From: the human T2T-CHM13v2.0 reference genome, Homo sapiens
Direction: 5' to 3' (one strand)
Assembly: GCF_009914755.1 (NCBI RefSeq)
Contig: NC_060927.1
DNA length: 64,000 bases
The notes below the pieces were generated by a model. It searched no databases. It worked only from the letters and a program-made list of their open reading frames with translations, and was not told the origin of the DNA. The position numbers were made by a program, and so were the translations under genes. Shown here one piece after another: positions 2,565 through 54,517 of the stretch (positions are counted from its first letter, which is position 1; each line of letters opens with the position of its first letter).

Positions 2565-2665
2565 CTGTTGCAAATCCACCCCTTTAAATAAAATAATATG
2601 CCCTTAGGCGGCATCCAAGTACAAACACATCTTCCAAATAGGTGGCTGCCCCTAAGCCCTTCCAT
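2565..2665 (-). CDS. IQSEC1: Candidate IQSEC1 alternative first coding exon MEGLRGSHLFGRCVCTWMPPKGILFYLKGWICN(S)
   Basis: ATG at 2665 (in-frame TAA upstream; second in-frame ATG at 2614), 101 nt open to a strong phase-2 donor CAG|GTAAGG. Non-repeat sequence; composition resembles the recognised first exons. Not recognised from memory. Confidence 0.5.
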
Positions 2666-3556
2666 ATACAAATTCGGGCCCCGTGTAGTTCCCCTTTACA
2701 GATGGGGAGACCCCAGCCTTGCCTGAGATCACAAGGGACCTGGCTTCCTGCGCCCTGGTCTCCCTCCTTCTGGCAGCTGCAGAGGCCGCAGCGATCACAG
2801 ATGGTGTCCCCTCCCCAGGGGGCCAAGGAGCTCTGCTCCACCCTTTCATTCTCACCATGCAGGCGCCATTCCAGATACCCCCACCACCCCCCACAGCTGT
2901 CCAGCTGGGGAGAAAGCTCAACGGCAAGGGTCATCGTATCCAACACTGACTGAATGCTGGCACCGCGCCGGGCCCTGATCTTAGTGTGTATTACCTCACT
3001 GAATCCTCAAAACAATCCTAAAAGGATCTGCAGATGGGAAACTTTGGCTAGAGGTGAAGCCGCTTCACACCACTAACAATGCCAAAGCCAGCATTAAACC
3101 TGGGCAGCCTGGTGTCTGAGTCCGGGCTGAGCCCTCAGCCACTCAGTGACTGACGTTTACGGTCACACGAAGGAATCACTACACCAAGCGCTGAAGGGAC
3201 GCGTGTGAGCCCCATTTCGCTGGTGGGTAACAGGCTCAGAGATGCTGTGGGGCAGGGCCAGGGTCACACAGCTGTGCCCTGTGCCAGCATGTTATGTAAC
3301 ACATGCTGCACCTGCCCCTGGCGTTCCTTTCCTGAACGTGTGCTCTGGATCCCAGCCGAACGTGTGCTCTGGATCCCAGCCAATCGCAGCACACCCCCTG
3401 GTCATTGTTCCACTCTCCTCCTCCCGCTCCACCAGAGACTGAAAGTTGCTCCAGCTCCCTCCATCCCAGCTCCTTCCTGGACCCTGTACAGCCATGCAAA
3501 CCATCCGGCCCAACAGTCGACAGCCAGGCAGAGCAGCCATGCACGCGTCCCGGTAC

Positions 3557-3624
3557 CTGAGTGTCCTCACAGAGATGCAGTACTTCCACATAAGGCTCCA
3601 CACGGCACTGCCATCCCCCTTCAT
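3557..3624 (-). CDS. IQSEC1: IQSEC1 alternative first coding exon MKGDGSAVWSLMWKYCISVRTL(S)
   Basis: ggcATG AAG GGG GAT GGC AGT ... AGG ACA CTC AG|GTACCG: 68 nt, phase 2. Near-identical to the recalled mouse Iqsec1 N-terminus MKGDGGAVWGLMWKYCISVRTLSVEGEAP. Confidence 0.87.
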
Positions 3625-3879
3625 GCCTGGCTCGGTGGAGGAGCGAGTGGCCAAGGGGCCCACCACCACTGCCCCACCACCCAGAGTCTCCTCCTGGCCA
3701 GGGAACGGCTCTCTTCACGGATTTTCAGGTCCCTTCCTTCTTCATGGTAGGAAGAAGAAAGAAAAGCCCCCAAAGTTAGGGAAAAGAGGAGGCACTGGCT
3801 GCCACAGGCCACTGCAGGGCTGAGCCACAGGCCCCACTATCCACCGGCCAGCCTCTGTGCCCTGGTCCTGTCTAGCTGC

Positions 3880-4250
3880 TCCAGACCCTCCTGGCCAAGC
3901 GGCCCTCACACACTAGACCCTGTGGCTTCTGCACAACCTTGCGCCTGCCTCCTGCCAGGAGACAGCAGTGGCTGCAGGCCAGGGGAGCAGTGAGTCACTC
4001 AGGGCGGGATGGGTGAGGGGCGTCCGCCGGTGAGGAAAAGCTCAGCTGCCGGAGCCCAGGGGCTGGCCCTGCGTCCAGAGGCTGGCCTGGGATGGGAGAG
4101 GCGAGCTCAGAGAGAGGGAGGCGGGCGGGGAGGCGAGGGCGGGCCCACATCCTCCCCATTTCCCCAGAGGCTTAAACCCAACTCCCGCCCCGCAGCCCAA
4201 AGCCTGCAGCCCGGCCCACCGACCAGCTGGCCAAGATGAGGGTGGAGGAA
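3880..4250 (-). promoter_or_regulatory. IQSEC1: Probable promoter of the MKGDG exon
   Basis: AP-1 site TGAGTCA 3991-3997, several GGGCGG boxes and local CpG enrichment 0.3-0.6 kb upstream of ATG 3624. Confidence 0.55.
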
Positions 4251-5759
4251 GGGGCTGCTCTGCCACCTCACTCCTAGAGAAAGCCTGGGGTTGACACAAA
4301 GCAAAATAAAGACAAAATCAGGGCTGCTCCTCTGGACAGTGGTTGGCCCTCCGAGGGTCTCCAGCTGGTGAGTGAGACGGTTTCCAGCTCTGGCTGGGCC
4401 ACTTCTTTGCTGTTTGATGCTGGGCGTGGTCAGCCCCCTCCGGCCTTAGTTTCACCTCAGGCTACTGTGGGCTTGTGGAGCTCTGGGAATTGGCCTAAGC
4501 CCTCCTCAGGCCAAGAACTAACTCATCCAGTTCTCCCAATGCCCTTAGAAAGTGGATTTTATGATTAGTGTTGGTTTACATGAGACACAGATAGAGGAAG
4601 TCACTTACCCTAGGTCACAGACCTAGGAATTGGTGGAGGTGGGATTTGAACCTTGGCAGTCTGGCTCTAAGAGCCCACGCTGGAGTCAGGGTGTAAGCTG
4701 GCTCCTCTCTGTAGGGATGGAGTGGGGTGGGATGAAGGGCTGGAGCCTCTGAGCAGCTGAAGGCCTTGGGGTCTGGGCCCAGGCTGGGTCTGGGGCATTT
4801 CCAGACTGAGGCCCCAGCTTGAGCCCCCACCCTGGTCTCCACCAGCTGCTCCCAGGCCCAGCCCAGGCCAGGCAGCTGGGGCTTCCCAGGCAGGGCCCCC
4901 AGGGATAATGACTCACGGATCAAGGTCAACACTCACAGATCTACTTTTCCCCACCTACAGCCCCCAGGAAGTCCCCCAGAAGGGCAGGTGCACCCAGCAC
5001 CTGGCACCCAGCAGGGCCCTGGGCATCATGTATAGTGGGCAGCAGAGCTTCCATTTCACCGGGGGAAACTGAGGCTCAGAGAGGGCCATCACCTGTCTGC
5101 AGAAACAGGGAGGGTGGGGCCAGGGCTCCAAAGCCTTGCTCTGTCCCCAGGCCCCACCCCCGGCCTGTGCAGAATGGGAAATCTGTCTCAGATTCCAGCC
5201 TGATTCCCACATCAAGGATTAGCAGCTGCAGGCTTCTCCATCCCCTGAGCCAGGAAAGAACTTTTAATCCAAAAACAAGATAGGTTTCTACAAAGGCTGT
5301 GGCCTCCCTGGGGGACTCGGAAACCCAAATTCTTCTCCCTGTCATCAGAGGAGGCTTCACAAGCCACCACAGCAGACCTCCACCTGCCACAGGGGCTCCT
5401 CCACAGCATGCAGCGGGAGTGGCTGCCCAGCCTCTTCTTGAACACCCCCAATGATGTGAAGCTCACTACCTTTCAAGGTTCCCCATTCCTTGTTTTTTCT
5501 TTAAGCTTCCCCATTCCATCATGGAACCCCACTGACCTAAGGAAACTCTCCCTTGGACATTACTTCCCTGTCACTTTTCATACTGGCCTCGGTTCCTTGT
5601 GCCACACAGACTAAGGCCTCCATTCAAATGTTTATCTGGCCTGTCCTCCTAGTAGGGGAAGTTTTCACAATGTCTTTTGTGGGTGGAAGTAGCCTCTGCT
5701 TACCCGCTTTATCTCTACCCACTGATTCATATATTCACACATCCACACACCTTCCTCTC

Positions 5760-6285
5760 CAATGAATCATCCATGGATTCATTAATCCATTCACATATCC
5801 ATCTATCATCTTCCTTCCTATCATCCATTCATTTATCCCCTCATCCACCCATCCATCCATCTGTTCCCTCACCCGCACATCCACCCATCCATCACTCCAT
5901 CCATCCATCCATCCATCCATCCATCCATCCATCCACCCATTTATCCACCCACCCATCCACTCATCCACCCATCTGTCCATCCATCCACCCATCCATCCAT
6001 CTGTCCATCCATTCACCCATCCACATATCATACGTTGTCTGCATATCATTGTAAATTTGAATTCATTGCAAATGAGCCTTAATTCATCCATCCATCCACC
6101 CATCCACCCACCCATCCATCCATCCACCCATCTGTCCATCATCCATCCACCCATCCGTCCATCATCCATCCACCCATCCGTCCATCCATCCACCCATCTA
6201 TCCATCCATCTACCCCATCTGTCCATCCACCCACCCATCCACCCATCTGTCCATCCATTTGTCCATCCACCCATCCATCCACTCA
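5760..6285. repeat. (CCAT)n/(TCCA)n degenerate tetranucleotide array
   Basis: Long run of catccatccacccatcc variants. Confidence 0.97.
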
Positions 6286-9200
6286 TCGGGGACATGTCAC
6301 ACTCTATCTGTCTTTGCCATCCTCGGGGGCTCATCCTTGAGAACAGGGCACTCCTTACTCATCTTTGACTCCTTTGTCCCTACACAAGCTACTTCCTCTT
6401 GCAGAGCCTCAGTTTGTCCCTTTGCAAAACAGGAATAAAAAATCTCTGCCCTCCAGGCTGTGATGAGGAATGAGTGATACCACAACTGTGTGACCCTGGG
6501 TATAAGACTTAACCTCTCAACATCACTGTCTGCAGGACAGCATGGCCAGTCCTTGAAGTGAGAGTTCATAATGGTTTCTGAAACAGAGAGTGCACTCAGT
6601 AAATACCAGCTGTCACCTAAAAAGCCCCTGGCACTGCCGGGCACGTGTTAGGTGCTCAGTGCTAGTTGCCCTGTAGGACACAGGGAGCCCCAGAAAGAGT
6701 GGGGGAAGCGAGGGCAGGTCTGCGTGGAAGCCTTCACCCCCTCAGCCATTCCATCTCCCCAGCCACAAGGCCAAAGCCGGGCTCTGCAGAGAACTGGCTC
6801 GCCCTCCAACCTCAGTCCAGTGACTCACACAGCCCGCTGGGGATGAAGTCACTGCCGCCCAGGCAAAGGGAAGGACACATTTGTTCCCTGGGAGATGCTG
6901 ATGCCATTGTGAACTTGGCCTTTGAGGGCAGGGCACAGCTCAGGGACTGTGTGCACTTGAGGAAGGCAGCAGGCACAGTGGAGGGACAGTGTTGAAGGGG
7001 ACCCTGCTTGGGGAAATGAGGACTGGAAGGGGTGCCCCCTACTCTGGAAACTGAGTGAGGGTCAATGAGCCTCTGTCTGGCCTCTAGGCCTTGCTGAATG
7101 TGTGCCCTCTCCTCGCCTGTTGAGATGTGTCTGCCTGTGGTCTTAGGGCCTTGAGACCCTCTAATTTCTGCCTCTGGCTTAAGGGGCAAGCCACTGTTCC
7201 ACATCTCTCATCCACAAAATGGGCACACTATACTCGACTCCCGCCTGGGGAACTGCAGGTGACAGTATGAGACCTCTCCTTACTCACTGGGGGTCCGTGC
7301 AGCCTCTCCTATTCCACCCACTCTCCCATGCTGACCGTCACCCACAGGAGACCAGGGTGGGGTGGGCAAGGCCCTTTGCCATCTTCTCTCTGCATTGAGC
7401 TTCCTGACACCCCCAAGTGGCCCCCACTCCATCACAACACCCCTGAGCCCTCCCAGATCTCCAGGCCTGTCCACCCTGGGCCAGGAATTCTGCACATATT
7501 GCCCAGTTATTCTCCACATGCCCCAGTCTGCTCTGGGCCCGGGACTGCAGCTCCCAGGCTCCCACTGCCTCCTGGTTCCTGACGGGGTGGCCAGCAGCGG
7601 CCCTGGCAGGAGGTCAGGAGGTGGAGGAGAGAATGATAGGTCAGGGTACTCGTTGCCTCAGCTCTGTCCTCGCTTCCTGTGCCCCTCGGCAGCCACAGTC
7701 CTGATGGGTGGCTGTTTGCACCCAGGTCTCTCTCTTTCTGGTTCATGAAACTGTTCTCTCCCCCAACCCTCTGGCCCAGGGCTGGTTAGGGTTCCCCCCT
7801 TCTGCCAGCCCAGGTGTCCAGTTCCCTTAACCCCATCCCACCCTGCACACAGCCCCATCACGGGCCACACTGCAAGGGAGCTTGTGTAGTGACCCATGTT
7901 TCCTACCAGGACCCAATGCTCAAGGCTCAAACTCAGACGACACCTCCTCTAGGAAGCCAATTTTCCATTGGCTTGTTCCTTCACCCAGTCAACATTCATT
8001 AATTGGCTTACTCTGTGCCAGATATCACTTGAGGATTTGGTGAACAAAACTGTGGAGCCTGGTGGGGCTGGCCTTCCTTCTGTACCAAGGGAGCAAATGA
8101 AAACGATTTCCCACAGTGGGCTGTGCCATGAAGAAGGCGTATAAACTAGATCATTTCTCTGGATGATACACTTCCCTTCTCCAGGAGTCCATCCTTTTTT
8201 GCCCTGCATCCTCTCCGTTCCCTGAGCCTGGACTGCAGCCATTTCTTCCCTGCACTTGGATGACCTGTCTCTGCATCCCTCCCTCACTGCTCTGAGAGCT
8301 CACATGAGCAGGTGAGGAGATCTATGTAGCTTAGTTCTTTGCACAATCACCCTATGAAGTAGCAGTTATTATCTCCCCAGCTTTTTTTTTTTTTTACCAA
8401 TTAATAAACTGAGGTTCAGATGCTGAGGTTAGTTACTCAGGATGATATATAAACCCAGCTCTGCCTATCTGACTCTAAAGCTAAAGCTCTGGAGGCTGAA
8501 AACAAAATAAATCACTTGTCATTTATATCTGCAGTCTTCCAATGGTGCCCAGAGCCATGCAAGGCGCAGGAAGGCACATACACCGAGTTGGCCGAACTTC
8601 AAAACCCTGGATCCCCCTTCTCAAGAAGCATTGGCCTTTTGAGGATGGGTGCTGGAATGCCCGTTTTCCAAATGGAAAAATGAAAGTCCAGGGTGCTGAG
8701 AGCGTTGGGTCTTGGAGGACAGTAGTGGGCTCCCAGCCTCCCAGGCAGCTGGCATCCTGAGTTCCACCATCTTGTCTCGGGCCTAGGATGGCCACTAATA
8801 TCCAGTGCGCAGGCAGGGGCTGGGCACTCACTTCAGGGCAGGAGCTGGGAAAGAAGGCAGAGAAGAGCTTCCGCAAGTCCATCTTATGGAGCACAAAGGG
8901 CCAGCGTCCAAGTTGCCAGACTTGGCCTGCAGGGCCTCACTTTACTTGCTGTGCAGAAAAGAGACCGCAAGGGGGCAATGGCCAGGCAGGGGCCAGGGAG
9001 GAACTGTTGCTTGGACTGGGGTGGTGGACAGGAAGGTGAGGACAAGAGGTTGGATTCTAGAGACATTCTCAAAGTGGAACTGGTAGAAATGTCTGATCAA
9101 TAAGATGAGGAGGTGAGAGAGAAAAGAGGAGTGGAAGATGATGCCTGGGTTGCTGGCCTGAACAACTGGAAAAATGGAGGTTCCATCCACGGTGACAGGG

Positions 9201-11284
9201 ACACAGGGATGGCCAGTGGGAGCAGGTTTGGAGGGATGATGAGGCAAGGCAGAACGGGGGGACTCCGACTGGTCAAACAGAACAACTGTGGCTTGGCTCT
9301 GGCTGATGGCTGCTCTGTAGGAATAAGGGCTCTGATTTTTCAGATATCAGAAATCCAGGTTTTTACGTAACAGCTCTTGATTTTTATATGTTTGCAATAA
9401 ATTCAAATTTACAATGATATGTAGGTTAATCCTATGCAAGCCAAATAAAATACATCTGTGAGTGTCTAGCCCACAGGATACCTCTTGTATCCTCCGCTCC
9501 TTCTTGTCTTTCAAGGTCCACTTAGCTGCCTCCTCCCCCAGGAAGCTGCCCATGATTGCTTCAGCTCCAGAGACGCCTGTGGCCCCTCAAAGCCCCGCAG
9601 GGCTGATAATCCCAGACTGGAAGTGACAGGAGGACAAATAGGGGGTTTGCTTATCCATTTCTCACGCCTCAAGCATAGGGTTTGGCCCAGAGGGGGAGTT
9701 AATGAATGAATACCTGCCGAATGAATGAATGAACAAGTAGCTCACTTGATCCCTCTGCCCTTATTTTGCAAATAAAACTGAGTCCCAGATAAGGGACATG
9801 ACCTGCCAGGGTGGGATCTGGGGCCAGGGACTGCTCACCGTCTGGCCTCTGTTTGTCAGCTGTCCCCCGAGGCTGGGCCAGGCTAGGCCGGCAGGAAGTA
9901 TAAAGACAATTGCACAGTCTTATCGAGTTATGCCATGGGAGGGTAGAAACAGGATCCTGAGCAGCTCTTGAGCATCTGGGTAGAGGCTGTTTGGGGGATG
10001 TTTTTCCAAGAACTTGCTAAGGTGACCCCAACCGGGGTCAGGGCAGAGCCAGACCCTAGAACTGGGTGCCTCTGCAGGTGGCATGGTCATGGGACAGATG
10101 ACACCCCAGATGGCAGGACTCACATTAGCAATCAGTCAAAGTGACAGCCAGTCCCCATGGGTTGTCCCTTCTGAGGGTTCTGACACGTTTCCTTTCAGCC
10201 ATGGGGAGGGCAGATGGTACTGGGTTTGACCATCAGGGTTTGTGCTCAGATCTTCTATGCAAGGAAATCAGACAACATAGGCACCGGAGGCTCTGGCCTC
10301 ATTCTTCAGTGTTGGAGATGGAGAATGGAGTCTCAGAGGTGGAGGCGACTTGCCCTGAGGTCACACAGTAAGGAAGCCGCAGATCTGGGACTCCGGATCA
10401 GAAGTCCTGATTCTGAGACCTGCGCTGGCCAAGGGATCCTCACAAGCCGTTCCTCACACCTTCTGGCCTACCTCAGTTTCTTCATCCACAACATGGGGAG
10501 AAAAATAGGATCTATCTCCAGGGGTTGTGAAGATGAAACAAATGGAAGGAGCTAACGCTGTGTGACTGTACTGTGTAAAGCTATATAGAAGATCACGAAT
10601 ATATAGCAACTGCCCTTCTAAGCCTCTAGCCTTGAAAGTTTCTGGCTATGGCCGTCTTTAAAACTTCCAGGGTGACACAGCTCTCCATCAACACAACAAG
10701 AACGGTGATACCTAAGGGCTACTGAATGGTTCCTGTAGCCACTGCTCTATGTGTGACTAATTCATTTAATGCTTAGGCTCATCCCATGAGGTAGGTGCTG
10801 TTACTATCTGATCTATAGGATAAAGAAAGGAAGGCAGAGAGAGGTCCACAGACACGCCCAGGGTTAATACAGATAGAACATGGCAGGGTGGGGAATTGAA
10901 CTGAAGCAGCTTTGTTCTGAGACATGCTTCATAACCGCTACATAACACGGCTCTCCTCGGCTGGCTTGGAAGTCTTTCTCAATGTCTAACCTAAATCCTT
11001 TTTGTTGCAGGCTGTGCCTATTCACTACCCCCTTCCTTAGACAAAGAAGAAAGCTGCTCCCTTCAATCTCCATTTTGTTGTGCTGAGAGGCCTCAATTCT
11101 TTAGCCCCTGTATCCTGACTCCCTGGGTCTTGCCGTCCAGGTCAAGGGGGGCCAAACAGGAACCCTCCCCTTGTGCGTGAGCGTGAGTGTGTGTGCGCAC
11201 ATGCGGTGTGAGATGTGTGTGTGCGTGCATGCGTGCACGTGTCCACACAAATCCCCTTCAAAGAGGACTGGTGAGGACTGGTAA

Positions 11285-11940
<656 letters not shown>

Positions 11941-11989
11941 TAGTTATTTATTAAATATTTTCTTTTAAAATCAACTGGCTTAAAAAATT

Positions 11990-12295
11990 GGACCTGAGTC
12001 TAATCAAGCTTCCTGATCTAACTCCCAGTTAACAGGAACTACAGGTGACAGAGGAATAGCTTAAATGACATCATGAGGCAATCAGCCTAATCCTGAATGT
12101 GGGACATGCCACAGGCAAATGGCCCTGTTCCTTCAATGAGTACTGCAAGGATGAAAAAGGAAGGGGAGCCTCTAGGTAAAAGGATGCTTACGAGACACGT
12201 GCACTGTGTGGGTCTTGTTAGGGCCCTGATTTGAACAAACCAGCTGTAAAAAGACATTTTTGGAGACCCTTTGGGAGAGCTGAACATGAAAAACA
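11990..12295 (+). mobile_element. Old L1MC/ME 3' UTR fragment
   Basis: cctgagtctaatcaag..gaatgtgggacat..cctgatttgaacaaaccagctgtaaaaagacatttttg. Confidence 0.65.
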
Positions 12296-13954: not shown

Positions 13955-14666
<712 letters not shown>

Positions 14667-14787
14667 ACCACCAAACACCAGGCACATAAGCTCTTCTGAG
14701 GGCACAGAATACTCGCCCAGACAGCGTCTCCTGACGAGCCCGAGGACAGGTCCTCGTACCCACTTCACAGATCAAGACAGAGAGGCC

Positions 14788-17135: not shown

Positions 17136-17675
17136 TGTGGTAGATTCTATTTCCAAACAGGGCCACAACCTCATCTCCTGTCCCAAACGCTCTGCCAGAA
17201 CCCTGCCACTCCTGAGCAGGGGTAGAGTTTAAGTCCTTCACCATGGGCTTGGGCAGCACTTTTGTGACTGTCCTGGTGAAGATCATGCCATAGAAGCGAT
17301 GCTGTGTGTCTTCTGAGGCCTGGTCATAAAAGGTGGCCATTTCTACTTGGCTCTCTTTCCCTTGGATTGCTTGCCCTTGGGACCCAGCCGCCATGTTTTG
17401 AGGACGCCCAGGCCACATGGAGAGTCCCGTGCAGGTGTTTTGGCTGCCAGCCCTGGCTAAGGTCTCAGCTGTCAGCCAGTAGCATTTGCAAGGTGAGGAA
17501 GGGAGTGAGTGGCTGGGTGGGTGCGTGGGCAGGTGAGGCTTCCTAGGAATCCAGCTCCTAGTCTTCAAAGCCCAGCTGACATTGAGTAGAGCAGGCTCTG
17601 CCCAAGTTGCAGTTCTATGGGATTTTAAACCACTAAGTTTTGGGGTGATGTGTTACACCGTCATAACAACCGCGA
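17136..17675 (+). mobile_element. Old MLT1 (G/H-like) LTR
   Basis: tgtggtaga..ttctgaggcctggtcataaaagg..cagccgccatgt..ttttaaaccactaagttttggggtgatgtgttac. Confidence 0.75.
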
Positions 17676-17724
17676 CAGTTACATGCAGTCAGAAAGTATT
17701 CATTAGTGTGGAGGAGACACGAGA

Positions 17725-19747: not shown

Positions 19748-19810
<63 letters not shown>

Positions 19811-23793: not shown

Positions 23794-23870
23794 CTTTTGT
23801 AGGCTCCATGCAGGGGCTGTAGGCACAGGAACTGCCAGTAATCCAGGCAAAAGGCCTTGAACTTGAGCAT
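23794..23870 (-). CDS. IQSEC1: IQSEC1 alternative first coding exon MLKFKAFCLDYWQFLCLQPLHGAYK(S)
   Basis: aaaATG CTC AAG TTC AAG GCC TTT TGC CTG GAT TAC TGG ... TAC AAA AG|GTAAGT: 77 nt, phase 2, consensus donor, CpG-rich context. The peptide is recalled from vertebrate IQSEC1 isoforms. Confidence 0.85.
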
Positions 23871-23997
23871 TTTCACCTTTTGGTCTCCAGCTGGACCACG
23901 GTAACGTCTCCGCGGAGACACGGAGAGGGGCTAGTGGGAGGTGGAGAACCGGCCGCTTCGGCCCGCCCTGGTCCCTGCCACGGCGGCCCCCACTCAC

Positions 23998-24083
23998 ATG
24001 GCCCAGCCCGCCCGGCGCAGCTTGTACAGTACACGCCTCCAATACAAAGAGCAGCCAGCACAAAAGCCTAGCAACTCATTCAC
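23998..24083 (-). CDS. IQSEC1: Candidate IQSEC1 first coding exon with non-AUG start: (V/M)NELLGFCAGCSLYWRRVLYKLRRAGWA(I)
   Basis: GTG AAT GAG TTG CTA GGC TTT TGT ... TGG GCC AT|GTGAGT: 86 nt, phase 2, CpG-rich. No in-frame ATG after the upstream TAA. Confidence 0.4.
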
Positions 24084-25689
24084 GCAGCTCGCCTGGCCCG
24101 GCTCATGCTGCTGCTGTCTCTGTTAGCTGGTGCCTCCGAGGGCTTCCCTGGGGGTCCCTGGGACACACCAAGGCAGCTCTGGCTGTATCAAGTTGTGGGG
24201 GCCCCCAGTCCATCATCCTGGGGGGTCTGGATGCTAGGGCTCCTGACGGTGGCTCTGCAAGTCTGTTCTTCCAACCAGGCCCTGGGGCTCCGGGTGGTGG
24301 GGCCGGCACTGGCTGGACAGTCCTACACCCGCCTGGCTGGCCCAGAGTGGCTGAGGCCAGGAAGACCCAGGGAGAGCAGGTAGGGAGGGGGCCAGATGAC
24401 AGGCAAACACTGGCCTCTTTTGCCAGATAAATTACGTTTGGCGGAATCCCTGTTCGGCCTGTGCGAGGGAAAACTCACCATGTAGCCACATGGTGCTTGG
24501 GGTGGGGGCAGCTGGGCTCTGAAAGGCAGGCGAAGGAAGACTGACAGGGTCGCCCAGCGCCTGCCGTTGCCTGGGCGACGGGGACACATTGATAAAATCT
24601 AAAATGGAACCGCTATGACAGCCGCTCATTGGCTGCCGGCAGGGGAATCCTGTCGCTAACCAGGGAGGGGAGCGGCTGAGCTGCAGGGCCACAGACAACC
24701 AGGCGCATTGTTGGGCAGAGGGACCCCAGGCAGAATGGGTGGCCCCACAGGCCAGGGGACCTGGCAGTCACAGACAATAGGAAAGGAGTCCCTGGCCCAC
24801 CCTCACCTCTCCCCTTGTATCTCCTGGGATCTGGCTGGTCCCGGCGTCTGCTCCAACCCTCCCATGGCCCATTTCCCACACACTAGCCACCTGAAAGTCT
24901 GAGGCTCTGGGTCCCAGATACAGTAGCCACCCTCACCCCCATGAATCCGGCACACCCTTTGGTTCCATGCAGTCTGCTCTCGGGTGCACTTCCTGCAGCT
25001 CCGCTCCTCCTCGTCAGTCAGGTCCCACTCCAGCACCCCTCGTGTCTAAGCTATAGCAGCTCAGCCCCCTTCAGCCACTACCCTGTCTGATTCTTTCCAT
25101 GGGACATCCCATCCTCTGAAAGGATCCTGCTTTTGCATGTTTACTTGTTAACTGTCTTTCTCCTGACTACAAGCAACGACTCCAGGGCAGGGGCCACATC
25201 TCTTTTAAGGGCCGGCCCACTGGAGGAGCCTCGATAATCATTTGTGGAAGGAAGGAAGGATCTTGTATAGTGTGTGAAAGGCTCTCAGAGGCACCACACT
25301 CACCCCCTCTGGCCGCTTTGGGGCCCAGGTTTGCACAACCCGACATCGTTTGCAAAGCAGTGGTCACACTCCATTCAGACGAGGAGGTCTTGCTACCTCC
25401 CCACTCCCCCTCAGATGAGGAAACAGAGGCACAGAGAAGACCCCATCCCCAGAGGTGTGCACACAGAGTCCAGGAGCTGCTGCTCAGGGGGGTGACATCC
25501 AGGCGGTCGGATGGGAGCTGGTGCCACAAAAAAGACAAGGCTCTGTGTGCCTCTAGCAAGGCTGCTCAGCTTCCAAGGGCCAGGCTGGGAACCAGAGGCC
25601 TGATCTCACCCCATGCAAAGCCAAAGAACAAAGTCTCCCACCTCAGGTGGCATTTTCTCAGTGTCATTAGCAAAAATGCTGCTTCTAGA

Positions 25690-28984: not shown

Positions 28985-29029
28985 CTGTAGCGGTCAGTGG
29001 AGAGGCTGCTTCCGGTGTCCAGGGAGCTC
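28985..29029 (-). CDS. IQSEC1: IQSEC1 45-nt cassette exon (L)SSLDTGSSLSTDRY(S), phase 2-2
   Basis: Branch-like AGTAAC, pyrimidine tract ctgtctcgcttttgccacctcAG|G AGC TCC CTG GAC ACC GGA AGC AGC CTC TCC ACT GAC CGC TAC AG|GTACTG. Frame-preserving; resembles the recalled rodent BRAG2 N-terminus MACRRRYLSSLETGSSLSTDRYSVEGEAP. Confidence 0.85.
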
Positions 29030-32000: not shown

Positions 32001-32069
32001 CGCCATTGCATGCATATTTGAGATACATCATTATTATCATTACATAGACTAGTGTATGTTGAGACGTAA

Positions 32070-33414: not shown

Positions 33415-34815
<1,401 letters not shown>

Positions 34816-39497: not shown

Positions 39498-39806
<309 letters not shown>

Positions 39807-40990: not shown

Positions 40991-41262
<272 letters not shown>

Positions 41263-47029: not shown

Positions 47030-47800
47030 CACAAGATACCACTTCACACCATTAGGATGGCTATTATTAAAGAAAAACAGAAAGTAATGAGTGATGGCGA
47101 AGATGTGGAGAAACCAGGACCTTTGTGCAGTGGTGGAGGGAAGGTAAAGCAGTGCAGCTGCTGTGGAAAACAGTATGGCGGCTCTTCAAAACAGTCAGCA
47201 TCCAATCACAATCTGACCCAGCAATCCCACTTCTGAGTATACACCCAACAGAAATGGAACCAGGGACTCGGAGAGGTATTTGCACACCCATGTTCACAGC
47301 AGCACTATTCACAACAGCCAAAAGGCAGAAACAACCCAGTGTCCATCAATGGGTGAATGGACAAACAAAATGTGGTCCATCCGCACAATGGAACAGTGTT
47401 CAGCTTTAAAAAGGAAGTTCTGCCCATTGCCGCAGCAGGGATGAACCTTGAGGACATGAGGCTAAGTGAAGTAAGCCAGTCAGGAAAGGACAAATGCTGT
47501 CTGATTCCACTCACATGACATCCCCAGGGCAGTCATATTCACAGGGACAGAGAGCAGAATGGTGGGTGCCAGGGGCTGGGGATGCAAGATGGGAGTCTGT
47601 GCTTACAGAGCACAGAGCCCTGTTTGGGAAAGTGAAGTTCTGGAGATGGATGCTGTGTTGGCTGCACGGCACTGTGAATGCACTTACTGCCGCTGAAATG
47701 TGTGTAATTAAAAAAGGCAAACATGTGGTCGATCTGCACAACGGAACAGTGTTCAGCTTTAAAAAAGGAAGTTTTCTGTCTATCTTACCACAATTTTAAA
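47030..47800 (+). mobile_element. L1MB 3' end
   Basis: agataccacttcacacc..ctgtggaaaacagtatggc..cacccatgttcacagcagcactattcacaacagccaaaagg..atgaaccttgaggacat. Confidence 0.9.
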
Positions 47801-50800
47801 AATGGTGATTTGTACCTTGTCAGGCCAGGCCCCTCAGGGATGCTAGAAAGCAAAGGCAGGACTTCCGGGCAGCTGGTGACAACAAAGGGGCCGGCACTGT
47901 GTCTGTCACAGCGAGGACTCGCCACGCGCCATGCGGGAGCTCTATGAGGGGGCCCATTTGCCTGGGGGAGTCAGGAAAGAGGCACAGGCTGGGCTGTGAG
48001 GTCTGAGGTGAAGGGGAAGAAGGGCACTCCCGGCAGAGGAGCCAGCATGGGCAAGAGTGTGGCAGGGTGAGCCTTCCAGGCAGGGCTGGGCAGGAGTTGG
48101 AACGTTGTGGGATCGTGGGAGGCCAGGAGGACCAGGAGAGAGGGCCTCAGGCCCCAGAGCGGCTGAGGAGAGAGGGGTGTGTGCAGGAAGGGGCGCCCAC
48201 TGCCCCACCCCGTTCTCTTCCCAGCTGTATCCAGGAGCCGCTCTGGCAGGTGCCACCGGGTCTTATTTACTGTGTCCCTTCTCTGGGCGGTAGCTCCATG
48301 CAGGCAGGGCGGGCCTGGTCCATTTACAGGCGTAGCCCACAGGCCTGGCGTGTGTCAGGACGTGGACTAGATGTCCAGTGACCATGGTGGGCTGAGTGAA
48401 TGAATGGGTGAGTGATCGGCAGGATGGGGCCATGTGAATGAGCCAGCATGCCTGGAGCTGCTGTGCCTGGCAGACACCACTCCTCCCACTCCCAGTCCCC
48501 TGTGTGTCGCAGCATAACCAGGAACTTTCCAGATGAGGTCAGAGGCCCAGAGAGGGCAAGCAGCCTGCCCAGGGTCACATAGTGAGGCAGGGACAGAGCT
48601 GGAGTGGAGCCTCCTTGTCCTGCTCTGTAAGGCCCCAGGTGGGCCAGGGCCTCAGAGACCAAGGGGCAGGATATTTTCATCCACTCTGCCTGCAGGGAGC
48701 CTCCTGGGGGTAAGAGTGAGATTTGAGAGAACAGGAGCCATCCAACAGGCTGGAAAGAGCGGGAAGGGCAGACAGGGGCTGTGTCGTCAGTAGGCTTTTG
48801 GGGGAAAGCAGCAGGCTCTAAGGTGAGCCTGGGAGCAGCTTAGCCAGCACCCAGGAGCAACGCCTCCTAAGCCCCCACTGGTGGTGACAAAACTGGTCTG
48901 GTCCACAGGCATTGGGTGGGGGGCTCCCAGTCACTGTGGGACAAGTACCCTCAGCACCCAGGACAAGCAGGCTGGGGGCAGCCATGCCACAGTGGCAGTG
49001 ACCAACACATTCCAGGTAGTGCATGCAGTGGGGAAGGGGTGGGGAGGGACAGAGCCTTGCGGCCAAGAGATCTGGAACCTGCTCAGGGTAAGGCGTCAGG
49101 TCCCCCAACACCTGGGCCCCCTGACCACCCTCCTTCCCTTCCTCATCCCATCTCTGTGCACTGGGTGCCCACTGGCCCCACCCACAAGGGCACACAGACC
49201 TGGCTGGGGAGGAGCAGGGTCTGGAGTCAGGCAGACTCACTGGCTGTGACCCTGAGCAAGGCACTTCCCTGGAAAACAGGATGGCACACAACCACCCTGC
49301 CAGAGTTGTGGGATTCAACAAGATAAGGCACTTTTGTTGTTATTCTTAAAGACCAAGTGAGTCAGTGCAAGGAGGCAGGCCAGGGCCCTGAGGAGATGGT
49401 GCCAGGTCCTTTAGGGGCACAGGGGGCCTTGGGGGCCTTCAACAAAGGGCCTCCAGGGAGGGACAAGGATGGCGTGACACTTGTTGAGCTTGGGGCCCAG
49501 CCTGCTTGCTGGCCCGCAGGCAAACCCTGGAAGGGGAGTATCAGCCCCACCACATAGAGCAGGAGGCTTAGGCCCAGTGCCTGTGCTTGGGGCACTTGGG
49601 AAAAGACGCTGACCATGGGCTGACCAAGGCCCAGCAGGGTCCTGCCCCGGGGCTGGGGCCAATCCAGGCCTTATGCTTCCTCTGAGGCCCAGGGAGGATG
49701 TGGATGTCGGACCTGTCCTTCACGGATCCTTTGGTGGAAGATGGTGGCAGGTGGGTCAGAGGTAGGTGCTTGCCTAAGCAGACGCTCCTTGTTGCCCTGC
49801 CTGTCCAGCAACTACCAGAAAAGTCTGTTCCTCTCAGTCTCTAAAATTCACCCCAGACAGGGTCTCTAAGTCCCAACATCATGCCAGGCCGTGCCAGCTT
49901 TGGGCATACAACGGGGAGCAGGCCTGCGCCCTGGCCTTGCAAAGGGGCAGAGGCAGTGGCCAGGCCTCTGAATTTTCAGGCCCCAGGCTCATGACACCCC
50001 CTCATGGTTGGGAGGCCCCAATGCAGTTCCCCAACCTCTTTAACCCCCAGTCTTTTCTTCATATCTTTAGCTTCCAGCACGACAATGCGACTCTTTACTC
50101 CAGGGCCTCCATGAACAGCCCCAGCCCCTTTACCTCTCTTCCTGGTCCACTCTGCTCCAGCAACACCATCCTCTCTCTGTGGCCCAATCCTGTCAAGCAT
50201 GCCCTCACCAGGGCCTCTGCACTTGCTGTCCCCTGCACCCGGGGCCCCCACTCTTCTCCTGGATAGTTCCTCCTAATCATTTAGATTTCTGTTCAAAGGT
50301 CACCTCCTCCAGGAAGCCCTCCTCACTTCCTGAGTGGCCACACAGTTCACTCAATCCATTCCCATTGGGCTCTCTATCTTCTTCATTTCTCTGTGTCCTT
50401 CTCCCCTGCAGTATCCCCTGAGAGCAGCACCCTCTCAGTGGTTCCCAGCACTGAGCTGGACATACAGCAGGTGCACCATGAACACTAGCTGAAGGCAGGG
50501 AAGTGAAGGCCCAGGCCTGGTTATGCGGCCTTGGCTGCCTATCCCAGTCTTTCTGAGTTATAACCAGGACCTGCCCAGTGGCTTCCTGGGGCTGTAAAGG
50601 GTGGATAGATGCTACAGCATTCTTGGAAAATAGCCCAGTGCTGTGTTGGTCATTCATAATAACCATTTTTAATAGTGATCACTGCATGGCAAGAAAGGCT
50701 ACCGGTCATCACACGTGCTTGAGTGAAGACTGGGCCTCCGGTTCCCTCCCTGCATCTCTCTCGGTGGGCTGGGGCTGCTCTTCCCTGGCATCCAGCCCAG

Positions 50801-53198
50801 GCCCACTGTCCAGCAGATGCTGATAACTGTGCCTGCAGAACTGACCCAGCCAAGGTGATAATGGTGAAGGCTCAATGCACAAGTTTCTTGGAGGCGTGTG
50901 TGTGTGTGTGGAATGTTCCAGGCCCAGTCCCACCAGTGTCCCTTCTTCTGTCTAGGGGAGACCCACCAGGGATTGGCTTCCTTCATGAAGGCCCCACTGC
51001 AAGCAGCAGGTCAGGGCATCCCACCAGAGGGAGACCACTGCCTCCTGCGGGGGCCGGCAGGTCATCATGTCCCCCAAACAGAAGGAAGAGAGGGGTCGGG
51101 ACAGTTCCAGGCAGTGAATGAATGATTGAACAGGCATGGGTAGGCGAGTGCTCCACTGGCCTGGCCAAGCAGCCCACATCTCACACACCACAAACTCCTC
51201 ACAGCCTCACTTCCTGTGTTCAAGTGACAGGATGTGACATGCCCATGAGGACAGAGGGGCCCCTTGCAGAGATGATGAAAAGGATGCTGTAGTTACAGAA
51301 TTGAGGGCCATCCTTCATTCAGACACCATTCATGAAGCTGCCAGTACAGCAATGACCTCGGGTGTTAGCAAGTTTGATTCAGGGTCTGATTCTTGGAAGC
51401 CTCCTGATGTTCCCCCATTGGGTTAAGAAATCTTCTCCTGCTTTTGTTGTCATCCTTTATCCCATCCAGTGTGCCACCTTCACGATGGACTGAGCCCTGA
51501 CCGGGACAGAGTCTCGATTCCATAAAGCTCCCTTGGGTGCACACCAGGGGCCCAGAGAGTGGAAGTGGCGAAAATGGAGGCTAGGGAGTGAGGACAGTGG
51601 GGTGGGGGTGGGGGCCCGCCGGCAGGGCTCCACTAGGCTGAGGATAGCCTGGCTGTGCCATGCACAGGGCCGCTGGAGCAAGTCTGTCCCGATTTGACAT
51701 GTGGCATGTTGGGGAAGGGATACCACTGCCAAATGTATGGCAGGAAACAGCTGTGTGACCCCAGTCAAGTTCCTTCCCCTCTCTGAGCCTCAGTTTCCTC
51801 TTCTGTAAAACAGGATCGACAGTATCACATTTTATAGCAGTTGGTGAGACCCCATGAGGCAACTAAGCATGAGAACGCTTTGCAATCAAGTTGGGCAGCT
51901 CTGATAGTGGCTACAGTGCAACTGTTGGGAAAGTTAAACATCTAGAGATGCTCAACACCCCATCTCCTTTCCACACTGAAAGGCAGGGTAACAATAAGGT
52001 CTGAGCAGCAGGTGCTGGGAGAGCCTGGGCCTAGAAGTGGGCCTGCCGCGGGTTCTGGGTGGGGAGTAATGGTGGGCAAACACAGGCTTATCAAGTGCAG
52101 CAGGGTAACCTCAGGAAAGGCCTGCTCTTGGTTACAAGATCCTTGTGTACAAACAGAGCCACCCCCTCCAAGTATCTTTGGTATTTCTGGTGCCAATAGG
52201 TTTGGTGGCAGAGGGGGGATGGCCTGGAAGTCACAATGCTCAGACTGGGAGCCTGAGAGCTGGAGAAGAGTGAAAAGACCCACAGAAAAGGAAGACAGTG
52301 AGCGCTAAGCCCCCTCGGGCCAGCCCCTCTCTTAGGCAGGAAGGCTAGACGAGCTTATTCCAGGAATCAGCAAATCCACCAGAGCCACGTGTTCAAATGC
52401 AGGTGGCTGGGCCCCCAACAGATTGAAGCAGACTCTCCAGGGAAGAGTATTGGAATCCATATAGAACATTGTCCCTGCAAAACTGCAATTGGATAGGCTT
52501 GGGCAACGCAGCCACAGTGAATAGCTGCATCACGGGAACATCAACCACACCTGGACATTAAAATCATCCGGAAAATGAAAAAGATCCTGAGGCTTGAGCC
52601 CTCCCCCAGACCTAGAAACCAGAATGTCTGGGGGTGGGACCCACACAGCTTTTTTTTTGTTTTTTTTTTTTTTGTTTCTTTAACTGCTCCTCAAGTGATT
52701 CCAGTATAGCTCCTGGGCTACAACCCCCACCCCAGGCTAGTATACTCCAGGGTTCCAGTAGAACTGTGCTGAGCCTCAGTTTCCCCATCTCTAAAATGGG
52801 GTTCTTAGTGCCTGCCCAGACAAGGCCTTTGTGAGGATGACATTTCTGAGCATTGGAGGCAAGCAGGCACTGGGCCAAGTAATCCGAATATGAATTGTCA
52901 CATTTCATCCTCATGACATCTCCCCTCCCCAATATAACAGCCCTGAGAGTTTAGAATTTCTCTGGCATCAGGCTCCTGGGCCCAGGCAAAGGTGTGGCAG
53001 GGAGGAGACAGCTGTCTCAGGAGGACCTATTCCCAGCCACTGGGGTGGAAGTTCCACGCTGGGAAAGGATTTACTATTTGTTTCAGAAAATGCAGCGAGG
53101 GCCTTGCCACAGGGAGTGAGAACTTTGGTGTGCTCTGCTCGCATCGACAAACCAACCTGTGAGCTTCTCCACTAAAAAAGCAAGTGAGCATCACAGCG

Positions 53199-53395
53199 AA
53201 CCAGAGGCCACCGTCATCCCTCGAACCAGAGGCCACCGCCATCCCCCAAACCAGAGGCCGCCATCCCCCGAACCAGAGGCCACTGCCATCCCCCGAACCA
53301 GAGGCCACTGCCATCCCCCAAACCAGAGGCCACTGCCATCCCCCAAACCAGAGGCCACCGCCATCCCCCGAACCAGAGGCCACCGCCATCCCCCG
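53199..53395. repeat. Minisatellite, 8 x 25-bp unit AACCAGAGGCCACYGCCATCCCCCR (one 22-bp unit)
   Basis: Units read directly from the sequence. Confidence 0.97.
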
Positions 53396-54494
53396 TGGGT
53401 TGCTGCCTGGCACTGCTGACGCAGCAGAGGCAGAGGTGTGTTTACTTTCCCTCAGTGGAGGTGACGGGGAGCTGCCACTCTATCAGGGGTTCCACAGGCC
53501 CCTGCCATGGTAAGGGGCCTCCATCAAGTAGGGAGGCCTTGGGGTAGCCCCCAGAAGGCTCCCCACATACTGCTCCAGGCCTCCTTTTCCTAGCCTTGCG
53601 ACTGAGCCCAGCTCAAGAGGACTCAGCCATGCTCTCTAACCTCCTAAGGTCTGAGGTCACTGCACAGCCCCAAATGAGTGGGTCCTGGGCAAATAGTTTA
53701 GGCAGGTGGAGACCTGACGCTGGGCCTCAACCCCCGCAGCCGAGGGTCCCAGAGGAGGGCAAAGGTTGCTCCTCCTAGAACAGCACAGTGCAGCGCCCAG
53801 AGAGCTGTGAGGGAAGCTGGCATTCGAACCCCACTGCCCCCTGGGAAGCCTGGCTAACCGAAGCGCAGGCTTTGGTTTCCATAAATACCCGGGCCCGTGA
53901 TGTCACCGCCCCGTGCAGACTTTCACAGCCTCTGCTGCTGGCGTGAGGCCCAGCACACAGCCGCTCTGCTGCCAGCCCACAGAACACCTGGGCACACAGC
54001 TGGACACTGATGCCACCGTGCTAGGGACGGTGGGCTGGACCTTCACCTGCCCTTGGAGGACGCAGCATCCTGCCCACTGCCTCAGCCTGCCTGCGACCTT
54101 CTATCAGGCATGGCTGAAGGGCTGGCCATGGGCGTGCTGGGCAGAGATTCTCTTCCTAAACAGGCTATGGGCTAAACCAAAGCCAAAACAGTAGGAGCCG
54201 GTCTGGGCACCCTGAATGTGGATCTGGGAGGGGGGATACCTGCTCTCACAGTTGGGAATTTCACAGCCTGCTGAAGACCTGCTGACTAATAGCCTTTTTC
54301 TCATCGTCATCACCAACAAACACCTCCGCTGCAGGGGCCGAGCGCCGGCATCCCTGCTGGGTGGCCAGCTCCCTCTGCAAGTCACCTGCACATCCACCTG
54401 CCCCTCCCCCAACGATGCCCCTCACTCCAGCTCCCAGCTCAGCCGGGCCCCTCTGGCCTCTGGCTTCAGGCAGAAACCTGCCACATATACTCAC

Positions 54495-54517
54495 AAATAG
54501 CGTCTTCTGCAAGCCAT
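54495..54517 (-). CDS. IQSEC1: IQSEC1 alternative first coding exon (MACRRRY-F/L...), coding part
   Basis: Minus strand ATG GCT TGC AGA AGA CGC TAT TT|GTGAGT (23 nt, phase 2), just downstream of a CpG island. Matches the recalled IQSEC1 N-terminus MACRRRYFVEGEAPSS. Confidence 0.95.

What the first reader, a model, noticed from the sequence alone, without database searches (positions are those of the whole stretch)
2565..54517. Variable first-exon array: interchangeable short Cys/aromatic/basic N-terminal peptides for IQSEC1
Seen: at least five short minus-strand ORF-to-donor units, all phase 2: MACRRRY (54495-54517), VNELLGFCAGCSLYWRRVLYKLRRAGWA (23998-24083), MLKFKAFCLDYWQFLCLQPLHGAYK (23794-23870), MKGDGSAVWSLMWKYCISVRTL (3557-3624), MEGLRGSHLFGRCVCTWMPPKGILFYLKGWICN (2565-2665). 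The sequences are unrelated, yet each has 1-3 Cys near Trp/Tyr/Phe and Lys/Arg. Knowledge: three are recalled IQSEC1 N-termini joining the common VEGEAP exon; variable-first-exon loci (UGT1A, clustered protocadherins, plectin) and first-exon palmitoylation switches (PSD-95 alpha, GRIP1b, PDE10A2) are established. Inference: promoter choice selects an S-acylation or membrane address tag that sends the same ARF-GEF to different membranes. That IQSEC1 has alternative N-termini is known; the size of the array and the shared chemistry are the part I do not know to be described.
Basis: partly seen in the sequence, partly recalled or inferred. Interest (0 to 1): 0.85.

Follow-up and report, generated by a model that had tools for sequence, protein, structure and literature searches.

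The report
IQSEC1 alternative first exons, three real
Three of the five short start-of-protein pieces are genuine, already annotated and deeply conserved alternative first exons of the IQSEC1 gene, while the other two look like chance, and the idea that they are fat-attachment address tags remains untested.

Summary
All five minus-strand ORF-to-donor units are in the sequence as described and read in frame into IQSEC1 exon 2. Three are RefSeq first exons: 54495-54517 (MACRRRY), 23794-23870 (MLKFK...) and 3557-3624 (MKGDG...). They are strongly conserved in orthologues. The MLKFK type occurs in 23 of 183 proteins, from mammals to zebrafish, with both Cys in 23 of 23. The MKGDG type occurs in 29 of 183, from eutherians to platypus.

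The other two units fail. 23998-24083 has no ATG. 2565-2665 is one of 123 equally valid phase-2 ATG-to-donor units on this strand. Neither resembles any of the 183 orthologue N-termini.

The Cys/aromatic/basic chemistry is not above random-ORF composition (Cys 6 of 75, P=0.066).

The array is already in RefSeq, and D'Souza et al. 2020 designed primers for every variant. N-terminal S-acylation has no site-level support: the only reported site is C-terminal Cys960. All published constructs carried N-terminal tags, so the idea is untested rather than refuted.

The parts
54495..54932 (-). IQSEC1 first exon of NM_001134382.3 (labelled 'select'). The coding part is 54495-54517 and encodes MACRRRY plus two bases. 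The donor is TTT|GTGAGT.
   Evidence: MA[C/G]RR[R/C]Y-type N-termini were found in 8 orthologue proteins (4 mammals, 1 bat with Gly, 3 bird proteins).
54401..55600 (.). The only CpG-island-like stretch in the window (GC at least 0.55, CpG o/e at least 0.65). It is the promoter region of the MACRRRY first exon.
28985..29029 (-). Optional 45-base coding cassette exon (SSLDTGSSLSTDRY region). It is used after the MACRRRY exon or after the far-upstream exons and keeps phase 2.
   Evidence: Seventeen orthologue N-termini match it. Bird and reptile proteins carry TSLETGSS.STDPL.
23794..23927 (-). IQSEC1 first exon of a Gnomon model (XM_054348628.1). The coding part is 23794-23870 and encodes MLKFKAFCLDYWQFLCLQPLHGAYK plus two bases. 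The donor is AAG|GTAAGT. The promoter is not a CpG island.
   Evidence: The same N-terminus occurs in 23 of 183 orthologue proteins, from mammals to zebrafish, with the core CLDYWQFLCLQPL identical in all 23.
3557..4305 (-). IQSEC1 first exon of Gnomon models (XM_054348612/615/629). The coding part is 3557-3624 and encodes MKGDGSAVWSLMWKYCISVRTL plus two bases. The donor is weak (CAG|GTACCG). The longest annotated 5'UTR holds 3 upstream ATGs.
   Evidence: The same N-terminus occurs in 29 of 183 orthologue proteins (eutherians, opossum, platypus), with Cys in 29 of 29.
23998..24083 (-). It is an open frame with no ATG lying upstream of the annotated start of the MLKFK exon. Its donor is CAT|GTGAGT.
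   Evidence: It is not in RefSeq. None of 183 orthologue N-termini resemble it. There is no match.
2565..2665 (-). It is an ATG-to-donor ORF in the intron below the MKGDG exon, with a strong donor (CAG|GTAAGG).
   Evidence: It is not in RefSeq. None of 183 orthologue N-termini resemble it. No match. No Pfam match.
673..1010 (-). Non-coding alternative first exon of IQSEC1 (XM_054348625.1). Translation then starts in exon 3.
1..599 (-). The 5' part of another non-coding alternative first exon (XM_054348622/626), which runs off the low end of the window.

Best explanation
The window holds part of a set of alternative promoters and first exons of IQSEC1 (BRAG2/GEP100). RefSeq lists ten first-exon positions over about 335 kb, and five of them lie wholly or partly in this window. 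Each first exon is spliced to the same exon 2.

Three first exons in the window carry their own ATG and a short coding part ending in phase 2. Promoter choice therefore puts one of several unrelated 7-25 residue peptides in front of the common VEGEAP sequence. These three peptides are real coding sequence under long purifying selection. By taxa seen, the MLKFK type reaches bony fishes, the MACRRRY type reaches birds, and the MKGDG type spans mammals.

The other two units (23998-24083 and 2565-2665) are chance ORF-plus-GT coincidences.

How it works, shown: one phase, one acceptor, separate annotated transcription starts, and conserved peptides.

How it works, from papers: the isoform with the MACRRRY start rescues focal-adhesion turnover. 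The paper's primer table gives isoform X5 the MWCLHC forward primer and the same reverse primer as the MACRRRY isoform, so the two appear to differ mainly at the N-terminus. X5 does not rescue.

How it works, inferred: the peptides act as isoform-specific docking or address tags. Candidates are a hydrophobic, Cys-bearing membrane or partner-binding element, with S-acylation possible for some, or an export-signal-like element. The Cys/aromatic/basic composition is most simply the mark of exons born from non-coding GC-rich DNA and then frozen by selection.
For: Anatomy.

Chance level of extra units: (123 phase-2 units against 125 and 117 in the other phases).

Conservation. The MLKFK type is in 23 of 183 proteins and the MKGDG type in 29 of 183. 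The two reader-only units are in 0 of 183. The classification is bimodal with no intermediates.

Locus-wide scan: 8,915 open phase-2 stretches were compared with the 183 N-termini. All but one of the matched places were annotated coding exons. The exception is an open frame at a non-coding first exon outside the window.

Composition: Cys is 6 of 75 residues, against 3.8% in chance ORFs (P=0.066) and 1.3% in the rest of the protein (P=4e-4).

Papers: D'Souza et al. 2020 eLife (PMC7159923; passages and section 28 read). Nacke et al. 2021 (PMC7955138; passages read). A mouse CAGE study ranks Iqsec1 fifth by number of start-site switches (PMC5470264; passages read).
Against: No RNA evidence (junction reads, CAGE) could be consulted for any exon, so use of 23998 or 2565 as rare donors cannot be excluded.

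Most orthologue proteins are computed models. The database is clustered at 90% identity, which hides isoforms, so absence from a clade is weak evidence.

I had no orthologous DNA. Coding selection could therefore not be separated from nucleotide-level constraint by synonymous versus non-synonymous counts.

Nacke et al. found that the v2-specific N-terminus was not required for invasion and that the C-terminus dominates localisation.

The molecular action of the peptides is inferred, not shown. Both AlphaFold models were useless (mean pLDDT 35.9 and 32.0).
Confidence: 0.8

Rival explanations
1. One reading: an array of five or more interchangeable first exons whose shared purpose is to supply an S-acylated Cys (a palmitoyl membrane address), so that promoter choice sends the same ARF-GEF to different membranes.
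For: Cys is invariant in the MLKFK type (both Cys, 23 of 23) and the MKGDG type (29 of 29), and present in 7 of 8 MACRRRY-type proteins. Birds gain a second Cys (MACRRCY). The MWCLHC exon outside the window has two Cys in all 38 proteins. The Cys sit among hydrophobic, aromatic and basic residues, as in known N-terminal palmitoylation signals (recalled). IQSEC proteins appear in acyl-proteomes: Iqsec1 Cys960 and Iqsec2 at protein level. Published isoform constructs were GFP- or FLAG-tagged at the N-terminus, so a free-N-terminus lipid anchor was never tested.
Against: Two of the five members are unsupported. The only site-level S-acyl report is C-terminal, and my searches found no N-terminal site. 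Cys is no better conserved than its neighbours: 17 of 25 MLKFK positions are invariant. A bat has Gly for the MACRRRY Cys. Cys content is not above chance ORFs (P=0.066). About half of the lineage-specific predicted N-termini lack Cys. The peptides are not amphipathic. The published v1-for-v2 N-terminus swap gave a more cytoplasmic protein.
Confidence: 0.15
2. The peptides are specific protein-docking or transport signals, not lipid anchors. One example is a nuclear-export-like hydrophobic spacing that sets the nuclear/cytoplasmic balance of isoforms. Another is an intramolecular regulator of the N-terminal IQ region.
For: Every position of the 13-residue MLKFK core is fixed from human to fish. 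Both long conserved peptides contain a class-1 export-signal-like spacing (LDYWQFLCL and WSLMWKYCISV), against 24 of 157 chance ORFs (the pattern classes are recalled). IQSEC1 isoforms differ in nuclear versus cytoplasmic or cortical localisation, and interactors unique to the v1 or v2 N-termini were sought by mass spectrometry. An N-terminal swap changes rescue of focal-adhesion turnover.
Against: The export-like pattern occurs in 15% of chance peptides, so two hits carry little weight. No partner is known for these peptides from what I read. The structure models gave nothing.
Confidence: 0.15
3. Promoter choice matters only for where and when IQSEC1 is transcribed. On this view the short peptides are passengers, conserved because the DNA serves as a promoter-proximal, 5'UTR or splicing element.
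For: Five of the ten first exons are non-coding and give a protein that starts in exon 3, so an N-terminal peptide is dispensable for a functional GEF. Nacke et al. found the v2-specific N-terminus not required for invasion. The composition equals that of chance ORFs.
Against: The ATG, frame and length are kept in 23 and 29 independent species models. The variable stretch of the MKGDG type changes residues while staying in frame, with a single one-residue deletion. There is no unusual RNA folding (z -0.52 and +1.49). The rescue difference between the MACRRRY isoform and isoform X5 also argues against it.
Confidence: 0.08

Closest known systems
Plectin (PLEC) alternative first exons (recalled from the literature, not checked here)
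   Same: Many mutually unrelated first exons, each with its own promoter, are spliced to one common exon 2. They give short isoform-specific N-terminal sequences on an otherwise identical large protein. Some first exons are non-coding.
   Different: For plectin the N-terminal sequences are known to direct isoforms to different cell structures. For IQSEC1 only indirect functional differences are published, and always with N-terminally tagged constructs.
First-exon palmitoylation switches: PSD-95 alpha/beta, GRIP1a/b, PDE10A2 (recalled)
   Same: An alternative 5' exon supplies a very short N-terminal peptide with Cys among hydrophobic or basic residues. The peptide is highly conserved.
   Different: In those proteins S-acylation of the N-terminal Cys is shown experimentally. 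For IQSEC1 I found no N-terminal site, only Cys960.
UGT1A and clustered protocadherin variable-exon arrays (recalled)
   Same: Several first exons with their own promoters join common downstream exons.
   Different: Their variable exons are tandem paralogues that each encode a whole domain. The IQSEC1 first-exon peptides are 7-25 residues long and show no mutual similarity.
IQSEC1 isoforms as already described (RefSeq; D'Souza et al. 2020; Nacke et al. 2021)
   Same: These are the same exons. RefSeq models carry all three N-termini. D'Souza et al. list primers for the MACRRRY, MACRRRY+cassette, MKGDG, MLKFK and MWCLHC starts.
   Different: In the passages I read, those papers do not discuss the depth of conservation or the Cys content. 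The MKGDG and MLKFK variants were not among the three variants detected in MDA-MB-231 cells.

Membership tests
Alternative-first-exon gene of the plectin type | Several first exons with separate transcription starts spliced to one common exon | tested here: met
   32 RefSeq transcripts use 10 first-exon positions, and all join exon 2 at window -76632. A mouse CAGE study ranks Iqsec1 fifth for start-site switching.
Alternative-first-exon gene of the plectin type | First exons are mutually unrelated and encode short isoform-specific N-termini in one phase | tested here: met
   All coding first exons end in phase 2. Pairwise peptide scores are at shuffle level.
Alternative-first-exon gene of the plectin type | The N-terminal peptide decides localisation or function | not testable with these tools
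   Evidence from papers only. The MACRRRY isoform rescues focal-adhesion turnover and isoform X5 does not. The effects on localisation are described as 'nuanced'. Constructs were N-terminally tagged.
Variable-exon array of the UGT1A / protocadherin type | Variable exons are tandem paralogues | tested here: not met
   There is no similarity above shuffles among the peptides. The one z=2.8 pair shows no DNA similarity (189 of 1000 shuffles).
Variable-exon array of the UGT1A / protocadherin type | Each variable exon encodes a whole functional domain | tested here: not met
   The peptides are 7, 22 and 25 residues long. No Pfam family reaches its cut-off and there is no PDB match.
First-exon S-acylation switch (PSD-95 alpha type) | The alternative N-terminal peptide holds Cys conserved across species | tested here: met
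   MLKFK type: both Cys in 23 of 23. MKGDG type: 29 of 29. MACRRRY type: 7 of 8, with a bat carrying Gly. Cys is not more conserved than its neighbours.
First-exon S-acylation switch (PSD-95 alpha type) | That Cys is S-acylated in cells | not testable with these tools
   No predictor or data were at hand. Literature searches gave only Cys960 of mouse Iqsec1 and protein-level Iqsec2.
First-exon S-acylation switch (PSD-95 alpha type) | Cys-to-Ser mutation changes membrane targeting | not tested
   This is a bench experiment. I found no such experiment in the papers I read.
Genuine IQSEC1 coding first exon (applied to 23998-24083 and 2565-2665) | An ATG start, annotation or transcript support, and an orthologous N-terminus | tested here: not met
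   23998-24083 has no ATG. Neither unit is in RefSeq. Both resemble 0 of 183 orthologue N-termini. Neither appears among the matches.

The most novel reading that the evidence does not exclude
The deeply conserved short N-termini of IQSEC1 (MLKFK..., MKGDG..., MACRRRY in this window, and MWCLHC... 51 kb downstream) could be alternative lipidation or address signals chosen by promoter, with at least one invariant Cys S-acylated in neurons. This would have been missed because every published isoform construct carried a tag on the N-terminus, and because the MLKFK and MKGDG isoforms were not detected in the cancer line examined. Promoter switching, which is frequent for mouse Iqsec1 in developing cerebellum, would then re-address an ARF-GEF between membranes.
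Probability: 0.2. Interest if true: 0.6.

Novelty: already known. Interest (0 to 1): 0.3.

Why it matters
IQSEC1 activates ARF5 and ARF6 in integrin and receptor trafficking, at synapses and in tumour invasion. Papers already tie isoform choice to invasion and adhesion turnover.

What this check adds is modest. Two N-termini known in human RefSeq only as computed models are among the most conserved parts of the protein's front end. One is nearly unchanged from human to zebrafish. They have never been studied with a free N-terminus. That makes a cheap, clear experiment worthwhile. It does not make the locus a new kind of system.

Tried and rejected
Structure prediction. I ran AlphaFold2 on alignments of 21 MLKFK-type and 21 MKGDG-type orthologues. 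Mean pLDDT was 35.9 and 32.0, and the N-terminal blocks scored 35-40. The short helices drawn there mean nothing, so I ran no fold search.

RNA structure of the two exons: z -0.52 and +1.49, no signal. Rfam on the whole window gave 0 matches.

Amphipathic-helix idea: the hydrophobic moment of both conserved peptides is below the median of chance ORFs, so I rejected it. The hydrophobicity scale was recalled.

Local duplication of the MLKFK exon as the origin of 23998-24083: rejected at DNA level.

Domain and structure look-ups of the peptides: nothing reached a cut-off.

Human counterparts of lineage-specific N-termini: tblastn gave only noise, apart from the items listed under Noticed in passing.

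Paralogue question, whether human IQSEC2 or IQSEC3 have the same first exons. Exact degenerate-motif scans of the genome found the three motifs only in IQSEC1. I held only half of each paralogue locus, so this remains open.

The donor score matrix uses recalled textbook frequencies, so thresholds are approximate. The comparison between phases and strands does not depend on them.

Supplementary figures that may bear on the claims were not visible: D'Souza Figure 1-figure supplement 1A and Nacke Supplementary Fig. 3. Divergence times behind statements of age are recalled, not computed.

'Not in print' rests on searches of the held library only.

Full report
OBSERVATION. I read the five stretches on the minus strand. 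In a script I translated each one into the common exon 2 of IQSEC1 (window -76926..-76632, fetched as L001). All five have lengths of 3n+2, are followed by GT, and read into ...VEGEAPSSETG... without a stop. The donors are TTT|GTGAGT (54495), CAT|GTGAGT (23998), AAG|GTAAGT (23794), CAG|GTACCG (3557) and CAG|GTAAGG (2565).

ANNOTATION. RefSeq lists 32 IQSEC1 transcripts that use ten first-exon positions, all joined to the same exon 2. Five first exons carry the start codon:
- 54495-54517, in NM_001134382.3, labelled 'select'.
- 23794-23870, in one Gnomon model.
- 3557-3624, in three Gnomon models.
- An exon 51 kb below the window (NM_014869.8, MWCLHCNSERTQSLLELELDS).
- A far-upstream exon at window +263 kb (NM_001376938.2, a 90-residue coiled-coil-like start).

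The other five first exons are non-coding, and translation then starts in exon 3. A 45-base cassette (28985-29029) is optionally inserted and keeps the phase. Units 23998-24083 and 2565-2665 are in no RefSeq model.

THE TWO EXTRA UNITS. Unit 23998-24083 has no ATG and begins with GTG. Reading by eye, the frame is closed upstream by a TAA at 24125-24123, and the nearby ATG at 24106 is in another frame and stops after eight codons. The unit also lies upstream of the annotated start (23927) of the MLKFK exon.

Unit 2565-2665 has an ATG and a good donor. To ask what chance gives, I listed every GT with a donor score at least as good as the weakest annotated exon (4 bits on a recalled position matrix) that is preceded by an open ATG frame of at least 7 codons. 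The minus strand has 125, 117 and 123 such units in phases 0, 1 and 2. The plus strand, which carries no IQSEC1 exon, has 99, 90 and 90. The donor at 2565 ranks second of the 123, behind the real MLKFK exon, but three more chance units score 10.9 or higher.

RELATIVES. No vertebrate genomes were available, so I used proteins. A search with exon 3, then with the exon-2 part of a 702-residue hit, then with the first 60 residues of a turtle protein, gave 220 proteins. Of these, 183 contain the exon-1/exon-2 junction. I classified their N-termini by local alignment score against the five human peptides. The classification was bimodal, with nothing in between.
- The MLKFK type occurs in 23 proteins: nine mammals, a turtle, a lizard, a bird, seven frogs, a lungfish, a bichir, zebrafish iqsec1b and a filefish (names). 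Seventeen of the 25 positions, including both Cys and the run CLDYWQFLCLQPL, are identical in all 23.
- The MKGDG type occurs in 29 proteins, all mammals, including opossum and platypus. Residues 4-10 vary while L-M-W-K-[Y/H]-C-I-S-V-R-T-[L/I] is fixed.
- The MACRRRY type occurs in 8 proteins. Four mammals have MACRRRY, one bat has MAGRRRY, and three bird proteins have MACRRCY.
- The MWCLHC type occurs in 38 proteins, including birds and coelacanth.
- No protein has an N-terminus like 23998-24083 or 2565-2665 (0 of 183 each; best score ratios 0.19 and 0.14).

I then ran the reverse test. I compared all 8,915 open phase-2 stretches ending at any GT with the 183 N-termini. The stretches came from the minus strand of the window and of the half of the upstream locus that I held. 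All but one of the matched places were annotated coding exons. The exception is an open frame at a non-coding first exon outside the window, which resembles a bear model at 61% identity.

Caveats. Most of these proteins are computed models. The database is clustered at 90% identity, which hides isoforms. The third search was seeded with an MLKFK-type start, so the narrower spread of the other types may partly reflect sampling.

THE 'SHARED CHEMISTRY'. Of 157 chance units of 20-35 residues, 68% contain Cys. Forty-five percent contain Cys plus an aromatic plus a basic residue, and 20% have them within four residues of each other.

The four conserved short peptides together hold 6 Cys in 75 residues. 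That is far above the rest of the protein (1.3%, P=4e-4). It is not clearly above chance ORFs from the same DNA (3.8%, P=0.066). Trp behaves the same way (P=1e-5 against the rest of the protein, P=0.24 against chance ORFs).

The simplest reading is that these exons arose from non-coding GC-rich sequence, whose translation is rich in Cys, Trp and Arg, and were then fixed. Within each peptide the Cys are not better conserved than their neighbours. One bat lacks the MACRRRY Cys. About half of the lineage-specific predicted N-termini have no Cys, while a few are Cys-rich: a cavefish, opossum, anole and coelacanth.

The peptides are not amphipathic. Their hydrophobic moment is below the null median. 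The MLKFK peptide is unusually aromatic (0.24, top 1.4% of the null). They are mutually unrelated. Only the MACRRRY exon sits in a CpG island.

WHAT IS PUBLISHED. D'Souza et al. [quoted passage not shown] They list primers for the MACRRRY, MACRRRY+cassette, MKGDG, MLKFK and MWCLHC starts, and detected three variants in MDA-MB-231 cells. The MKGDG and MLKFK variants were not among them. The MACRRRY isoform rescued focal-adhesion turnover. Isoform X5 shares its reverse primer but has the MWCLHC forward primer, and it did not rescue, nor did isoform B. [quoted passage not shown]

Nacke et al. 2021 (PMC7955138; passages read) swapped the v1 and v2 N-termini. They found a 'nuanced and combinatorial' effect, with the C-terminus dominant and the v2 N-terminus not required for invasion.

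Both groups used GFP- or FLAG-IQSEC1, that is, tags on the N-terminus. A mouse CAGE study ranks Iqsec1 fifth by number of start-site switching events in cerebellar development (PMC5470264).

On S-acylation, the only site-level report I found is Cys960 of mouse Iqsec1, near the C-terminus, in a preprint (PMC10996552). Iqsec2 appears at protein level in a rat palmitoylome preprint. Searches found nothing on N-terminal acylation of IQSEC proteins. The supplementary figures of both isoform papers were not visible to me.

MECHANISM. Shown: one acceptor, one phase, separate annotated starts, conserved coding peptides. From papers: the N-terminal peptide can change function. Inferred: the peptides are isoform-specific docking or address tags.

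I give about 0.15 to a protein-docking or export-signal role. Both long peptides show an export-like hydrophobic spacing, but so do 24 of 157 chance peptides. I give about 0.08 to the peptides being passengers of promoter choice.

COMPARISON AND NOVELTY. The locus works like plectin's alternative first exons (recalled): unrelated short first exons joined to one common exon. It does not meet two defining features of UGT1A- or protocadherin-type arrays, paralogous variable exons and domain-sized variable exons.

It shares with PSD-95-alpha-type switches a short conserved Cys-bearing alternative N-terminus. The defining feature of those switches, acylation itself, is untested here.

The real part of the finding is already in RefSeq and in the 2020 paper. 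The extra members are not supported. What is worth passing on is this: two N-termini that exist in human RefSeq only as computed models are conserved across mammals, and one across bony vertebrates, and they have never been tested with a free N-terminus.

VERDICT. The feature is already known, and I score interest at 0.3.

Noticed in passing
It combines with the MACRRRY exon or the far-upstream exons. It is matched by 17 orthologue N-termini, including bird and reptile forms (TSLETGSS.STDPL).
   Followed up: partly
outside the window: L003 (window +263053..+263324) and L004: The far-upstream first exon of NM_001376938.2 encodes a roughly 90-residue heptad-like start (AAEYLQELTRIVAAQQELL...). 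It resembles the starts of fish IQSEC1 (P0016) and an IQSEC2-like protein (P0053). It looks like the ancestral long N-terminus shared with the paralogues.
   Followed up: no
P0160, P0166, P0184, P0185, P0187, P0193 (sauropsid IQSEC1 models); L023 1149-1169: Lizard and bird IQSEC1 isoforms carry an extra exon with the motif LHQFCCPAPLYHTQL. The seven residues HQFCCPA match exactly in the human IQSEC2 locus piece I held. No counterpart was seen in the human IQSEC1 pieces held (half of the locus).
   Followed up: partly
P0042 (alligator, labelled IQSEC1): This protein matches human IQSEC2 best yet starts with MWCLHC, like the IQSEC1 exon 51 kb below the window. That suggests this start predates the IQSEC1/IQSEC2 split. 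An exact motif scan found no such start in the human IQSEC2 or IQSEC3 loci.
   Followed up: partly
L008 5424-5563 (window about -31509..-31370): The human 'non-coding' first exon of NM_001330619.3 has an open phase-2 frame that is 61% identical to the predicted N-terminus of a bear isoform (P0066). By my arithmetic the ATG lies about 10 bases upstream of the annotated human start.
   Followed up: no
P0006, P0198, P0199, P0208-P0211: Lineage-specific predicted N-termini of a cavefish, opossum, anole and coelacanth end in or contain Cys pairs (..LLCC, ..QLCCIL, ..VVFCCSLL, ..QCSC..). Whether this is recurrence of a Cys motif or just random-ORF composition is unresolved.
   Followed up: no
P0005 (snailfish): Its 10-residue N-terminus MFKKGDGSQI shares KGDGS with the start of the mammalian MKGDG peptide. 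The score ratio is only 0.24, so this is possibly chance.
   Followed up: no
window 53197-53395: A tandem repeat of a 25-base unit, 8.1 copies at 92% matches, lies in the intron about 1.1 kb below the MACRRRY exon.
   Followed up: no
window 5822-6281: A (CATC)n tract with a 28-base higher-order repeat. On the minus strand it reads as a long GWMD-rich open frame (5751-6334) that shows up among the chance ORF-to-donor units.
   Followed up: no
window 3559-3624 (-): The residues WKYC of the MKGDG peptide give a sub-threshold Pfam hit to Urotensin II (12.2 bits against a cut-off of 18.6). The MLKFK peptide gives one to CRM1_repeat (13.9 against 29.5). I take both as chance.
   Followed up: yes
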